This document shows positions 15,960 through 52,584 of a stretch of 64,000 nucleotides of DNA, one piece after another. How positions within the stretch are numbered: the stretch's first letter is position 1; each line of letters begins with the position of its first letter. The notes under the pieces were generated by a model. The model was not told the origin of the DNA. It was given only the letters and a program-made list of their open reading frames with translations, and ran no database searches. The position numbers and the translations under genes are program-made. The DNA is taken from IMG/VR virus record IMGVR_UViG_3300028591_000134, positions 37,233 through 101,232 of that record; one strand, given 5' to 3'. The stretch comes from a virus. Lineage: Duplodnaviria > Caudoviricetes.

Positions 15960-16043
15960 TGAATGTGGTAGGATTCGAACCTACGCATTACAGCTTGTGA
16001 TGTTATCTACGGCCGTTACTCTGTCCAACTGAGCTACACATTC
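15960..16043 (-). ncRNA. tRNA-like RNA with a 17-nt loop in place of the anticodon loop
   Basis: Acceptor GAATGTG/CACATTC, D-arm GCTC/GAGT, T-arm GTAGG-TTCGAAT-CCTAC; stem ACGGC/GCTGT encloses CGTAGATAACATCACAA. Confidence 0.75.
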
Positions 16044-16229
16044 AATTGAGAGAGATTTGCTCGCTATTCTACGATCACCCGTAGTTAGTGTTCCTTATAT
16101 TGGCACTCTCTCATTGCAAGTTATTCTTACCTTGCGCCCCTCTTCGTGCGGTGAGTCCGCCAAGAGATGTTACTATTCTATTTACCATTACTCTGCACTT
16201 CATGGTTTTCTCACTTCAAGTAACCGTTG

Positions 16230-16295
16230 TAGCGTGCGGGAGATTCGAACTCCTAACTTCTCTTGCGAGATGTGTTACCATTACACCACGACGCT
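16230..16295 (-). ncRNA. tRNA-like RNA whose anticodon loop is a GNRA tetraloop
   Basis: AGCGT/ACGCT acceptor, GGTGTAATGGTAACAC D-arm, TCTC-GCAA-GAGA, GGAG-TTCGAAT-CTCC. Confidence 0.75.
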
Positions 16296-16429
16296 CCAGG
16301 GGTCAATTAGACCCTCCACCACTGACCTTTTCCTACGGTAGTCAGCACCATCTTGTTTGACCATTTATAATTTCACCTAAAATTCTTGCGGCTTCGTGTG
16401 GTTTACACACAAACGGCCGAAATTCTAGA

Positions 16430-17029
16430 TTAAAAGGGCAGGTCGTCAGCACCTGTAGAGTCTGCAGTCACCGGAGCACTGTTACCAGTGAGCGGGTCGT
16501 TAGGCTTCTCTTCATCAGCCTTCACGGGACGCTCCAGAAGATCGTTCTTCCAAAGCTTAATCTGCGACTCTTCTTTTGCAACTTCCATAGATTCAACGAA
16601 AATACCGTTCTTAGATACCTGAGTATAACCCTTCTTATCATAAGTTACCTTAAGACGTAAAGGACTATTATCACCATCATTAAGACACATCTTAGCCCAA
16701 GTGATCATTTCGATAAATGAAGAACCTTCAAAATCGTTATGACCACCCTTAACTGCATCAATGACCTGCAGAATACGACCGAACTGCTGATTATCACGAC
16801 GCTGTAAATCCTCGTCGGTAGTAATCCACATATTCTTCTCGTTCTTCCACTCAGTCATAGTTGCCGTCTGGCCTTGTTTATTCTCAAAGATAATCTCTAA
16901 GAAATCACGACCCTGAGGTGTCTTATTTACGTTTACCTCTTTCAAGGTAATATTCTCGTTGATGCCTACAGGCATATATGAGGAGGTAAACTCCTCGTTA
17001 CTTGTTGTTGCTGTTTTTGTACTATACAT
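16430..17029 (-). CDS. Probable single-stranded DNA-binding protein
   Basis: In the replication cluster; flexible acidic tail ending DDLPF. Confidence 0.7.
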   Translation of the reverse strand: MYSTKTATTSNEEFTSSYMPVGINENITLKEVNVNKTPQGRDFLEIIFENKQGQTATMTEWKNEKNMWITTDEDLQRRDNQQFGRILQVIDAVKGGHNDFEGSSFIEMITWAKMCLNDGDNSPLRLKVTYDKKGYTQVSKNGIFVESMEVAKEESQIKLWKNDLLERPVKADEEKPNDPLTGNSAPVTADSTGADDLPF

Positions 17030-17227
17030 AATTTTCCTTCTGACTTTATAGTTCTTAATTATAAATTAAATTTTAATGTCTATTCCTATGTAATATTCCA
17101 TTTGAACCTTTGTAATAATTTGTACTAGGACCGTTATAACGTTCAATTGGTTTATTATTAACTCCAAATACTTCATCAAAATATTCTCTATCGTCGTTAT
17201 TCATATCTATTAAAATTTAATTTACAA

Positions 17228-49017: not shown

Positions 49018-49071
49018 TTTAAATTACTAATGCAACATGAATAAACTAATTCCAGTTAATTAAAACGAATT

Positions 49072-52000
49072 ATGGAAAATACAAATACAAGATTATATTA
49101 TTTTAGAACTAAATCGGCGTTCTTGACGTATAAAGAACAGAATGGATTTTCGAAGGGAGCTATTGCGTTTATCGAATCTCCAAAATCCATTTATACACAC
49201 AACCAATACTGGGATGGTTCCGATGTTCCTACTGCTATACAAAACGCATTAACGAATATAGATACCGGTGGTATCAAAGACGGTACTGTATTGGGCACCA
49301 TAGACGGAAAGACGTTTAAATTTGGAGATAGTATTACTACTAATGGAAAAACGTATACTGCAGGCGAAGGTATTGATATTACAGGCACTACAATAAAGAG
49401 TAAGCCTGCTACATCTGAGAATATAGGTGGAGTTAAACTTGGCTATCCTTCAAGTGGAAATAATTATGAGCTCAAAGTAGATGGATATAATAGGGCATAT
49501 GTATATGTTCCCGGAGGAGATAATCCGATTTCTGGTGAAAATGGAGGATTTTGGGAGTTGATATTTATTGCATCCAACACAATGCCGGAGCTTCCAGGAA
49601 GCAATGCTTTAAGTAGCGGGTGGGATCATTCAGTACCGAGTAATACTAAGAAGATAATATGGATGGCCGATCGTTGGGTAGACGGATCTGGCACATATGG
49701 TCCTTGGCAAGGTCCCTGGCAAATCAGTGGTGTTGATGGCAAACCTGGTGTAGATGGTGACGAATTTGAGTATATTTATACTAGAACTACTGTTGAAGAC
49801 AGATCGTTGTGTCCTGGGCTTAGTAATTCACAGATTGACGATTATGTTCCCGCAGGATGGACAGATGATCCACAAGGAGTAAGTAATGACATTAAATATG
49901 AATGGATGGCCTTCAGAAAGAAGGAACATAGTGCCACTAATCTTGATGGTACTTGGACTACATTTACTGGTCCCATTCTTTGGTCTGCTTACGGTCGTCA
50001 AGGTATAGATGGAGATAGCGTAGAGTATATATATTTCGCAGGTTTAAATAACCGTTGGACCGACAATCCTGCATATTGGGGAAATGATGCACGATTCCAA
50101 GAGGATGATTATGTACGTCCTAATAGCGGATGGTCAGACAATCCTGTAGATTTGGAAAGTGCGAGTTATGGTCCTGGTTCTAAGCAGTGGGTATCTGTAC
50201 GCAAAAAGCGCAATAACATGTGGCAAGCATTCTCTAGTCCTAAACTATGGGGTTATTATCCGAATGACGGTAGGACAGGTAATGGCATAGTGGCAGATAC
50301 TGACAACGATATGATAGCTGTGTCGCTTGATGAAAATAATGCTAACTATGCAGTTAACTATGGAATACAGATGCATATGTATGAAGATGCATCGAATATT
50401 ACTATAACTGATTCGGAAATAAAGAGCGTTAAATGGGAAGATGGTACTACTGTAAGTTATTCAAACGAATTTGTTGCAAATAACGGACTGTTGACAATCA
50501 ATATTCCTGCTGAAACATATACGTTTGATAGTACTAGCCACGGCACATCTATATTTGTGACAGTTGAAATAACTGGTACTACTACATACGGTGTAACGAA
50601 GAGAAATATTGTAGTATAGTTAGCCGGATTTAGATTTGGTACCGATGGAGCTTCATATAAACTTGGAACTTCCGCAAAGGTGATCCGTAAGTCAAAAGCC
50701 GGAGTGCTATCTCCAGATCAATTAGAGGCCTGGTGTATTAAGACCGAGGGCGCTGGAAATATTGAACGTTGGACGCCAAGTACTATAGATGCCTCATCTA
50801 ATGGCGAATTCCAACTTAAATACGCTATAAACGATGGTTCAGATACTACGCTAAGTGCAGATTCTATTGTTGTTCCGTCTAATGCGGATACTATAACAAT
50901 CTCCCTATATTATGTGTCCGGAAGTCCATATCTCGTAGATCAAGAGAATATTCCGGTCATTAGAGAAGGAAATGATGGAACATCATCGATAATGTATCAA
51001 ATTCATTTAGTACAGGGCGCTATAAGAAAACTTTATCGCGAGGCAAGTAATATATGGCAAGTTGAAGGCGGTATAACATTCTTTGTTACAAAAATTGAAG
51101 GAACGTCTGCACCTTATTACATAGATGGCTCACAACCCGATGTAACTGTGGAAGTATATCTTGGTGGTCCTGAAGGATTACAATTGTCAACTTCTATGAC
51201 ATCATTAAACGGAAATCCGTTGTTTGTAGCAGATGTTATTGGAAGGACTTGGAACGATTCATTTACTTATACTACTATATTTGTAAAAGAAGGTGGAATC
51301 ATTAGAGCTGTCGCAGTTGTTCCTACAATAGTAAACGGCAAAAATGGAGAAACTGTAGAACAACAAGCTCTTGATTATGCTGTTACTAGAATTAGGAAAT
51401 GGAAGTCTGTTTTGGGTCCAGATGACGCTAATTGGAATAATGGCACGAATGTAGAAACTAATAGTGGAGTACGTTTTATAGATGTTGTAACGTACAATGG
51501 CAATTATTATGTATGTAAATATGCAGGTACAACTTCTGTTCCGGGTACAAATGCTGATCACTGGGCACTTTTAAATCGCGGCGAAGATAGTGCATACAAT
51601 ATGATCGTTTCTAACTTTATGGCTACTAATAGTCTTACTGCAAAACAAGTTGTAATTACAGATAGTAATGAGAACGTAGTAGCTGGAATGGTTAGCGGAA
51701 ATTTAGTATCTTCTGAATTTGGAGCATGGGCTAGCAATAACTCAAACGGAATTAGAATATTCGCTGGTGATAGAAGTAATGGTTCGAACATCGCAGATGC
51801 TGCATTTACGGTAGATGGTGGCGGAAATGTTAAAATGGCAGGTGATGTAAACATTTCAAGTGGTAATTTAAATATAGCCGGAGAAAGTGTGGTCATAAAT
51901 GGAGACCTTATAAAGGTTAAAGATATGTCTAACGGCACATCGTTCAGTGTAAATGAAAATGGAGATTTCGTAGGAGCTAAGGGAAATATTGCATATGACT

Positions 52001-52464
52001 ACACATATCATACGATGAAGCTCGGAAGCAACAATACCCTGTATTCGGAAGTACATTCTAAGGAAATTAATATCGATGGTGGGACAAACACTGTAAGCTC
52101 TGATATATCTATAAAAGGTGATATAAATATAGATGGAACTGTTTCCGCAACCGGATTAACCGCAAATACTATTCAAACTGAAAGCATATCTGCTAGTGGC
52201 AATGTTACGGTAGACGGACAATTAAATGTAAATGACGTTGTTAATTTTACTGCCGATACAAACATTGAAGATTTAGTTGTAAACAACATTTCTATAAACG
52301 GGAGCGTTAGTGCAGTAAATGGTGAACCTGGAGCTACGGAAGATGTTGAAATTTAGACTCCGTTATTCGGGAGTAACTCACAATTACTTGGTTACACCGT
52401 AATCACTCTACATTTTAGTGGAGGAATATTTACAGGATCTGAAACTCATACCCAAAGTTTATAA
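49072..52464 (+). CDS. Putative tail fibre/receptor-binding protein (1130 aa), 2 TAG read through
   Basis: Fragments are in one frame; GWTDDPQGV/GWSDNP repeats, G.DG linkers, beta-rich C-terminus. Confidence 0.8.
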
Positions 52465-52496
52465 TAACAGAACCCCGACTGTTTAAACGGGGACTT

Positions 52497-52584
52497 TGCG
52501 AGGTAGCTCAATGGTAGAGCAAGAGACAGGCACTTATGTGTTACGAGAGCACTATGGAAGATGGTTCGATTCCATCCCTCGCAG
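52497..52584 (+). ncRNA. tRNA-like RNA with canonical acceptor, D and T arms but no canonical anticodon arm
   Basis: TGCGAGG/CCTCGCA, GCTC-AATGGTA-GAGC, GATGG-TTCGATT-CCATC; 39-nt irregular centre. Confidence 0.7.

What the first reader, a model, noticed from the sequence alone, without database searches (positions are those of the whole stretch)
15960..52584. A dispersed family of anticodon-less tRNA mimics
Seen: at least six elements keep an acceptor stem and a TTCG T-arm but have no 7-nt anticodon loop. They are 15960-16043 (17-nt loop), 16230-16295 (GCAA tetraloop), 30131-30174 (minihelix + ACCA), 32514-32571 and 45185-45234 (no D arm, tetraloop, CCA), and 52497-52584 (irregular centre). 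A weaker candidate lies at 22864-22913. Stems are largely intact while the anticodon is specifically lost, which argues against random decay. Inference: they are RNase P/Z processing marks, or decoys for host tRNA-targeting defence nucleases or tRNA-binding enzymes.
Basis: partly seen in the sequence, partly recalled or inferred. Interest (0 to 1): 0.8.

Follow-up and report, generated by a model that had tools for sequence, protein, structure and literature searches.

The report
Anticodon-less tRNA-shaped marks in crAss-like phage
A rumen crAss-like phage carries at least five small RNA folds that copy the top half of a tRNA but cannot read codons; like their counterparts in related phages, they sit exactly at the borders of other RNA genes and gene starts, and most likely tell the host's tRNA-trimming enzymes where to cut.

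Summary
The window is part of a 101-kb crAss-like phage from sheep gut whose late genes read TAG as an amino acid. Five of the seven listed elements are significant tRNA-like folds on the transcribed strand: 15960-16043, 16230-16295, 32515-32571, 45185-45235 and 52497-52584. All five lack a 7-nt anticodon loop. Element 30131-30174 is a conserved hairpin without a true T loop. Element 22864-22913 is not supported.

The five are not paralogues. Each abuts another RNA:
- two flank a conserved 186-nt structured RNA in the primase leader;
- one follows the coding piece of a permuted tmRNA and lies 3 nt before an intron-split tRNA-Leu;
- one touches the intron-split amber-suppressor tRNA.

In 67 of 80 relatives, a T arm with an acceptor strand ends 17-29 nt before the primase ATG, and few of these are real tRNAs. 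Families of such mimics in relatives keep all stems through compensatory changes. True tRNAs and mimics replace each other at the same junctions.

My best reading (about 0.5) is that they are processing marks for host RNase P and RNase Z, like the t-elements of plant mitochondria. No RNA ends were mapped. A decoy role is untested. Unchecked notes of this scan record similar elements in other phages.

The parts
15960..16043 (-). tRNA-like element A. Full cloverleaf with 7-bp acceptor, D arm, T arm and a 5-bp anticodon stem, but a 17-nt loop. It ends 26 nt before the primase ATG.
   Evidence: Rfam tRNA 52.2 bits, R1 58.4 bits, alignment. ARAGORN calls it only as Val(CAC) with a 10-nt 'intron'.
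16230..16295 (-). tRNA-like element B. Gln-type D arm and a T arm, an acceptor stem with one bulge, and the anticodon arm replaced by a 4-bp stem with a GCAA tetraloop.
   Evidence: Rfam 33.8 bits, R1 36.4 bits, fold.
16044..16229 (-). Conserved 186-nt structured RNA lying exactly between elements B and A.
   Evidence: Homologues in L017, L031 and L032 are always flanked directly by a tRNA or tRNA-like element. 26 predicted pairs, 8 with compensatory change. No Rfam family.
32515..32571 (-). Mini tRNA-like element 1. 8-bp acceptor stem, a small hairpin and a T arm, with no D arm. It directly follows the tmRNA coding piece and lies 3 nt before tRNA-Leu.
   Evidence: R1 26.6 bits, E 2e-5. Homologues in three relatives, with 3 T-stem pairs changed on both sides and 96% of cells paired.
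45185..45235 (+). Mini tRNA-like element 2. Bulged acceptor-like stem, a small hairpin and a perfect T arm. It abuts the first base of the intron-split tRNA(CUA).
   Evidence: R1 18.3 bits, E 0.006, fold. The stretch 44964-45234 is absent from a strain variant in RNA-library contigs. No homologue found.
52497..52584 (+). tRNA-like element with intact acceptor, D and T arms and an irregular 39-nt centre. A pseudoknot precedes it, and a hairpin with a U-rich tract follows.
   Evidence: Rfam 46.1 bits, R1 47.2 bits. Syntenic homologues in G002 and G001 have unrelated acceptor sequences and centres of 31 and 56 nt.
30131..30174 (-). Conserved bulged hairpin with minihelix-like geometry, starting in the stop codon of the upstream gene. 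Membership in the class is doubtful.
   Evidence: No R1 or Rfam hit. The loop lacks A58. The outer stem keeps pairing through two changes in G002.
32575..32722 (-). Context: coding piece of a permuted two-piece tmRNA, whose 3' end borders mini element 1.
Evidence: ARAGORN finds a permuted tmRNA once 32923-33663 is removed in silico.
31701..32511 (-). Context: tRNA-Leu(UAA) split by a 727-nt group I intron that carries an HNH gene.
   Evidence: ARAGORN -i, Rfam group I intron, HNH domain, intron-less allele with the same junction, intron-less homologue in L056.
45236..46305 (+). Context: tRNA(CUA) split by a 995-nt intron that carries an HNH gene.
   Evidence: Intron-less allele joins 45269 to 46265. 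ARAGORN on the spliced form gives anticodon CUA. Two compensatory anticodon-stem pairs against Bohxovirus.

Best explanation
The confirmed elements are tRNA-shaped processing modules. Each keeps the part of a tRNA that RNase P, RNase Z and the CCA-adding enzyme recognise: the acceptor stem stacked on the T arm, often with the D-arm elbow. Each has lost the anticodon loop, so it cannot decode.

The elements are transcribed inside long early and late transcripts. Host RNase P would cut at their 5' end and RNase Z after the discriminator base. Those cuts would free the neighbouring RNAs: the 186-nt structured RNA, the tmRNA coding piece and the two intron-split tRNAs. They would also leave the primase message with a short leader of fixed length.

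What is shown: the folds, their strand, their exact abutment to other RNAs, their conservation by shape, and their exchange with real tRNAs at the same junctions in relatives. What is inferred: the cleavage itself, and which enzymes perform it.
For: 1. Significant tRNA-like folds on the gene strand.
2. Gaps to the neighbouring RNA or gene are 0-26 nt for four elements, and element 52497 lies 4 nt after a conserved pseudoknot.
3. In 67 of 80 relatives a T arm with an acceptor strand lies before the primase ATG, ending 17-29 nt from it in 57 of 58 distinct sequences. 32 of the 58 have a 7/7 acceptor match, about 6 expected by chance. Only 10 of the 46 best-formed are callable as tRNAs.
4. All 90 model hits in relatives lie on the primase strand.
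5. Selection on shape. One family in 10 relatives has an 8-bp arm with a pentaloop in place of the anticodon arm. It shows 98.7% pairing and 7 pairs changed on both sides, a count reached by 0 of 500 shuffles. A 44-nt minihelix family shows an A-U to G-C swap in the T stem. Mini element 1 has a covarying T stem.
6. Real tRNAs and mimics exchange places. The primase slot holds tRNA-Trp, Leu or Lys in some relatives. The 186-nt RNA is followed by tRNA-Leu in L031. In one strain tRNA-Met sits where mini element 1 sits (table 5c).
7. Elements A and B have the same A-C trailer as the phage's six real tRNAs.
8. The phage has no CCA-adding enzyme or metallo-beta-lactamase (RNase Z-type) gene of its own, so any such processing would fall to host enzymes.
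9. Plant mitochondrial t-elements with the same T-arm motif do this job (PMC1920247).
Against: No RNA 5' or 3' ends were mapped. Only assembled contigs of RNA libraries were available, and they cannot show ends.

RNase P and Z need only the top half of a tRNA. Yet three window elements keep a D arm, and the family in relatives conserves its substitute arm and its loops at 93% identity. That hints at a role beyond being cut.

Element 52497 looks like a separate small-RNA gene rather than a spacer between two RNAs. Three relatives have no tRNA-like fold before the primase, so the mark is not indispensable. Elements A, B and mini 2 have no homologues, so selection on them specifically is unproven.
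Confidence: 0.5

Rival explanations
1. Stand-alone tRNA-shaped effector RNAs. After release the elements accumulate as stable small RNAs. They act by occupying a host protein that recognises tRNA shape, such as a tRNA-targeting defence nuclease, a modification enzyme or Ro60. Their position at junctions is then only how they are expressed.
For: The conserved family in relatives keeps the sequence of its loops and its 8-bp substitute arm (93% mean column identity, compensatory changes in the substitute arm). Cutting alone would not require this. Element 52497 has its own upstream pseudoknot and downstream hairpin with a U tract, conserved in two relatives. D arms are retained in three window elements. 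A Bacteroides control genome has a Ro60 (TROVE) gene.
Against: Nothing here points to any particular target. The mini elements lack the elbow. The centres are hypervariable between close relatives. Real tRNAs substitute at the same junctions. The topology differs from YrlA, and no YrlA match was found.
Confidence: 0.25
2. Debris of a fast-turnover tRNA array. tRNA genes are captured in hot spots, disabled by an insertion or deletion in the anticodon loop, and have not yet decayed. They have no function of their own.
For: Elements A and B are unique to this genome. Element A is one 10-nt insertion away from a tRNA-Val(CAC). The primase slot holds unrelated sequences even in relatives whose flanks are 89% identical. 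A strain variant lacks 44964-45234.
Against: Decay should hit all stems equally. Instead, 32 of 58 distinct slot elements keep a 7/7 acceptor and most keep a 5/5 T stem, while only about 10 keep a usable anticodon arm. Three families show compensatory changes. The distance to the ATG is fixed.
Confidence: 0.15
3. Unusual but working tRNAs whose expanded anticodon loops or short inserts are removed or tolerated, and which decode, for example in the TAG-recoded late genes.
For: TAG is recoded in the late genes. ARAGORN can force Val(CAC) with a 10-nt insert and Ile or Pro readings.
Against: I know of no bacterial pathway that removes inserts of 5-10 nt (my own knowledge). Tetraloop and pentaloop arms present no anticodon. 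The CUA suppressor is accounted for at 45236-46305. The forced anticodon calls conflict with each other.
Confidence: 0.03

Closest known systems
t-elements of plant mitochondria (Forner et al. 2007, PMC1920247)
   Same: Non-canonical tRNA-like folds that keep the conserved T-arm motif. They lie at the ends of other transcripts, are interchangeable with real tRNAs at such places, and are proposed or shown to direct RNase P and RNase Z cuts. The excised element can receive non-templated C/A.
   Different: They occur in an organelle genome, not a phage, and there is no sequence kinship. In the phage the elements border mainly RNA genes (tmRNA piece, structured RNA, split tRNAs) and one gene leader. 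Cleavage is not shown for the phage.
tRNA punctuation of animal mitochondrial transcripts, and mascRNA at the MALAT1 3' end (my own knowledge)
   Same: A tRNA or tRNA-like fold inside a long transcript is used as the cut site that creates the ends of neighbouring RNAs.
   Different: Those are eukaryotic systems. Mitochondrial punctuation uses decoding tRNAs. The only weak Rfam mascRNA match in the window lies on the true tRNA-Lys.
YrlA / bacterial Y RNAs (Chen et al. 2014, PMC4201824; topology from my own knowledge)
   Same: A tRNA mimic with T arm and D arm and no anticodon, also reported in phages.
   Different: In YrlA the RNA ends form the Ro60-binding helix and the acceptor-like stem is closed by a loop. 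Here the acceptor stem carries the free ends and the lower arm is capped. There is no Rfam match and no TROVE gene in the phage.
Canonical phage tRNAs (Rfam RF00005)
   Same: Acceptor stem, T arm with the usual loop, often a D arm with GG, and the same A-C trailer as the phage's own tRNAs.
   Different: No 7-nt anticodon loop. Two elements also lack the D arm.

Membership tests
Canonical tRNA (RF00005) | 7-bp acceptor stem and a 5-bp T stem with a T loop | tested here: met
   Met for 15960, 32515 and 52497. 16230 has a bulged acceptor stem, and 45185 has a 6-bp stem with an extension.
Canonical tRNA (RF00005) | 5-bp anticodon stem with a 7-nt loop, U33 and a readable anticodon | tested here: not met
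   The centres are a 17-nt loop, a GCAA tetraloop, a 32-nt irregular centre and small hairpins. Plain ARAGORN does not call four of the five, and its calls for 52497 conflict.
t-elements (tRNA-like processing signals) | Non-canonical tRNA-like fold that keeps the conserved T-arm motif | tested here: met
   The T-arm motif is present in all five confirmed elements. The definition of the motif is from PMC1920247.
t-elements (tRNA-like processing signals) | Ends of the fold coincide with mapped ends of neighbouring transcripts | not testable with these tools
   Only assembled contigs of RNA libraries were available, and they cannot show ends. The predicted borders do coincide with the borders of neighbouring RNA genes.
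t-elements (tRNA-like processing signals) | Cleavage by RNase P and/or RNase Z | not testable with these tools
   Needs an enzyme assay or end-mapping.
YrlA / Y RNA | Ro60-binding helix formed by the RNA ends, with the acceptor-like stem closed by a loop | tested here: not met
   The folds show free ends on the acceptor stem. No Rfam match at E up to 10.
YrlA / Y RNA | Linked rsr (TROVE) gene | tested here: not met
   No TROVE match in the 101-kb genome. The control rang in Bacteroides thetaiotaomicron.
tmRNA tRNA-like domain | Acceptor stem with G3-U70, joined to a tag reading frame | tested here: not met
   The tmRNA's own acceptor stem is formed by 32722-32716 and 32917-32911. Mini element 1 closes on itself and has G3-C.

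The most novel reading that the evidence does not exclude
The excised mimics are not mere spacers. They accumulate, possibly with an added CCA tail, as a cocktail of hypervariable tRNA-shaped decoys. These would soak up host enzymes that attack or sense tRNAs, such as anticodon nucleases or Ro60/PNPase. The rapid turnover of their lower halves would then reflect an arms race with host defences.
Probability: 0.12. Interest if true: 0.85.

Novelty: new variant of a known kind. Interest (0 to 1): 0.6.

Why it matters
crAss-like phages are among the most abundant gut viruses, yet their RNA biology is almost unknown. If these folds are cut sites, a whole clade builds its early leader as a tRNA-punctuated array. 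That array would release a tmRNA, a suppressor tRNA and unknown structured RNAs using only host tRNA enzymes. This would be a bacterial-virus counterpart of mitochondrial punctuation and plant t-elements, and I found no description of it for phages in the papers searched.

There is also a practical side. tRNA finders miss these elements, or mislabel them with spurious anticodons, as ARAGORN does for 52497. This affects tRNA counts and genetic-code inference in recoded phages.

Tried and rejected
- A blastn search of the primase leader against deposited phage genomes gave no useful match.
- A search for relatives through the protein at 50680-52356 found none.
- Relatives fetched through the protein at 46344-46901 were distant lineages with only ordinary 72-74-nt tRNAs downstream, which was uninformative.
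- A pattern scan of IMG/VR for element B found nothing. The scan for the geometry of element A found six unrelated odd tRNAs.
- My first loose acceptor-plus-T-arm scanner found fewer hits than in shuffled sequence, so it was dropped in favour of covariance models.
- Contigs of sheep-gut RNA libraries cover the region but cannot show ends, levels or strand. The intron-less junctions also occur in a DNA run, so they prove alleles, not splicing.
- Sigma-70 promoter and terminator scans were uninformative for a Bacteroidota-type host.
- A circularly permuted tRNA reading of 45185-45275 was rejected, because the 3' strand of mini element 2 does not complement the 5' strand of the following tRNA.
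- I considered mini element 1 as part of the tmRNA fold. It closes on itself, and in one strain a tRNA-Met takes its place.
- No Rfam family other than tRNA and group I intron reached threshold.
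Full report
WHAT THE WINDOW IS. The window is bases 37233-101232 of a single 101,232-bp contig. Its nearest named relatives are uncultured crAss-like phages from pig, macaque and human samples and a Bohxovirus (Crassvirales, Suoliviridae), at about 77% nucleotide identity in the replication genes. Near-identical DNA and RNA-library contigs come from sheep gut metagenomes. The giant plus-strand genes at 1-11933 are open only if TAG is read as an amino acid, so the late genes are TAG-recoded. 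Genes from 12 to 43 kb run on the minus strand, and genes from 43 kb onward run on the plus strand.

THE OBSERVATION. Rfam's tRNA model passes its gathering score at three of the listed places, always on the strand of the flanking genes: 15960-16043 (-) at 52.2 bits, 52497-52584 (+) at 46.1 bits and 16230-16295 (-) at 33.8 bits. I built a tRNA covariance model from nine ordinary tRNAs of this phage and its relatives (R1). It also finds 32515-32570 (-) at E 2e-5 and 45184-45235 (+) at E 0.006. Both fold as an acceptor stem, one small hairpin and a perfect T arm, without a D arm. Neither model sees 30131-30174 or 22864-22913. The first is a conserved bulged hairpin whose loop lacks the A58 of a T loop. 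The second folds no better than shuffled sequence and is not conserved. So five of seven elements stand. They share no sequence beyond the tRNA consensus, so they form a class, not a repeat family. The phage's true tRNAs encode no CCA either.

WHERE THE ELEMENTS SIT. This is the main new point. Elements B (16295-16230) and A (16043-15960) enclose, base to base, a 186-nt RNA. Element A ends 26 nt before the primase ATG. That 186-nt RNA has homologues in three relatives with 8 compensatory pairs. In each relative it is flanked directly by a tRNA-like fold or a real tRNA; in L031 it is followed by tRNA-Leu.

Mini element 1 (32571-32515) lies 3 nt before a tRNA-Leu(UAA) that is split by a 727-nt group I intron carrying an HNH gene. 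An intron-less homologue in L056 and an intron-less allele in the metagenome confirm the junction. I tested that reading: after removing 32923-33663 in silico, ARAGORN calls a permuted tmRNA with a tag ending in two alanines, and its coding piece starts at 32722.

Mini element 2 (45185-45235) touches the first base of a tRNA split by a 995-nt intron with an HNH gene. An intron-less allele joins 45269 to 46265, and the spliced form has anticodon CUA. The anticodon stem shows two compensatory pairs against the Bohxovirus homologue.

Element 52497 lies 4 nt after a compact pseudoknot (52466-52492) and before a hairpin with a U-rich tract. All three parts recur at the same place in two relatives.

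RELATIVES. I fetched 80 IMG/VR relatives through the primase. R1 gives 90 hits in them, all on the primase strand, and many have odd lengths of 44-105 nt and low scores. In 67 of the 80, a T arm followed by an acceptor strand lies just upstream of the primase ATG. These make 58 distinct sequences, and in 57 of them the element ends 17-29 nt from the ATG. 32 have a 7/7 acceptor match within 110 nt, where my estimate of the chance number is about 6. 40 end in the same A-C dinucleotide as the window's elements A and B and its real tRNAs. Only 10 of the 46 best-formed are callable by ARAGORN, and some of those calls are doubtful.

The centres differ completely even between close relatives: long loops, tetraloops, extended hairpins, or nothing at all in a 44-nt minihelix found in 12 relatives. 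One family, present in 10 relatives at several positions of the array, has an 8-bp arm with a pentaloop instead of an anticodon arm. It pairs in 98.7% of cells and has 7 pairs changed on both sides, spread over all four helices. That count was reached by 0 of 500 shuffles and never by slid controls. Mini element 1 has homologues next to the tmRNA coding piece in three whole-genome relatives, with three T-stem pairs changed on both sides.

Real tRNAs and mimics replace each other at the same junction. tRNA-Trp, Leu or Lys occupy the primase slot in some relatives. tRNA-Leu follows the 186-nt RNA in L031. In one strain in the sheep DNA run, tRNA-Met is joined 5 nt from where mini element 1 begins (table 5c).

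INTERPRETATION. What is kept is the acceptor stem stacked on the T arm, the discriminator and the following C. From established knowledge, this is what RNase P, RNase Z and the CCA-adding enzyme recognise. What is lost is the only part needed for decoding. Together with the exact abutment to other RNAs, the fixed distance to the primase start and the exchange with real tRNAs, this fits processing marks best. These marks would be cut out of long transcripts by host enzymes, since the phage has no CCA-adding enzyme or metallo-beta-lactamase gene of its own. Plant mitochondrial t-elements are the closest described case: they have the same T-arm motif, lie at transcript ends and are cut by RNase P and Z (PMC1920247). 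I put this reading at about 0.5, because no RNA end was mapped. The RNA-library data available were assembled contigs, which cannot show ends, and the intron-less junctions also occur in DNA.

RIVALS. A stand-alone effector or decoy role (0.25) is suggested by three things: the strong sequence conservation of loops and of the substitute arm in the 10-member family, the D arms kept in three window elements, and the gene-like setting of element 52497. This role does not exclude processing. Young tRNA debris (0.15) fits elements A and B, which have no homologue anywhere I searched. Element A is also a single 10-nt insertion away from tRNA-Val. Debris does not explain the compensatory changes or the fixed position in relatives. 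Odd decoding tRNAs (0.03) are very unlikely.

COMPARISON AND NOVELTY. The elements fail the anticodon-loop criterion of tRNA. They differ in topology from YrlA and have no linked TROVE gene. They are not the tmRNA's own tRNA-like domain. They work like t-elements, but they lie in a phage and mainly border RNA genes. Searches of the held literature found no description of such elements in crAss-like or other phages. Unchecked notes of this same scan report similar anticodon-less mimics at gene junctions of several other phages, with the same reading. I did not test those. I class the finding as a new variant of a known kind and give it an interest score of 0.6.

Noticed in passing
window 45236-46305 (+): The only candidate amber suppressor of this TAG-recoded phage is hidden by a 995-nt intron that carries an HNH gene. 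In the spliced form, three of the five T-stem pairs are mismatched, whereas the Bohxovirus homologue has a good T arm.
   Followed up: partly
window 32575-33714 (-): A permuted two-piece tmRNA with a group I intron (32923-33663) in the T loop of its acceptor piece. The intron holds an HNH gene on the opposite strand (about 32977-33473). ARAGORN calls the tmRNA once the intron is removed.
   Followed up: partly
window 16044-16229 (-); L017:3713-3895, L031:3006-3171, L032:2850-3023: A 186-nt structured RNA of no known family, with 8 compensatory pairs, an invariant hairpin loop and a possible internal pseudoknot. It is always framed by tRNA or tRNA-like folds.
   Followed up: partly
window 16296-16365 (-): A motif of about 55 nt with two hairpins just upstream of element B. 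It is 94-98% identical in relatives whose primase is far more diverged. In three relatives it sits directly before the primase leader, with no tRNA-like fold between.
   Followed up: no
window 52466-52492 (+): A compact H-type pseudoknot 4 nt before the tRNA-like element. Its second stem covaries in two relatives, and one loop is conserved.
   Followed up: partly
window 24950-26890 (-): About 1.9 kb without a credible gene, GC-richer than its surroundings, containing a T-loop hairpin at 26382-26396. It is 76-81% identical over about 1.2 kb in relative G002 and is a candidate large non-coding RNA.
   Followed up: no
L008:3266-3344 and nine other relatives (alignment A3): A highly conserved tRNA-shaped RNA with an 8-bp arm and a pentaloop where the anticodon arm should be. 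It occurs at different positions of the array upstream of the primase.
   Followed up: yes
L040:3934-3977 and eleven other relatives: A 44-nt minihelix made only of an acceptor stem, a 10-nt linker and a T arm, lying directly before the primase, with a compensatory swap in the T stem.
   Followed up: partly
window 29480-30082 (-): A phage gene with sigma-70 region 2 and region 4 domains, lying just downstream of the conserved hairpin at 30131-30174.
   Followed up: no
window 31806-32417 (-), 32808-33473 (+), 45290-46210 (+): Three HNH endonuclease genes, each inside an intron of an RNA gene. The reading frames at 31806-32417 and 45290-46210 run on into the 3' part of their introns (for 31806-32417, into the Rfam-matched intron core).
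   Followed up: partly
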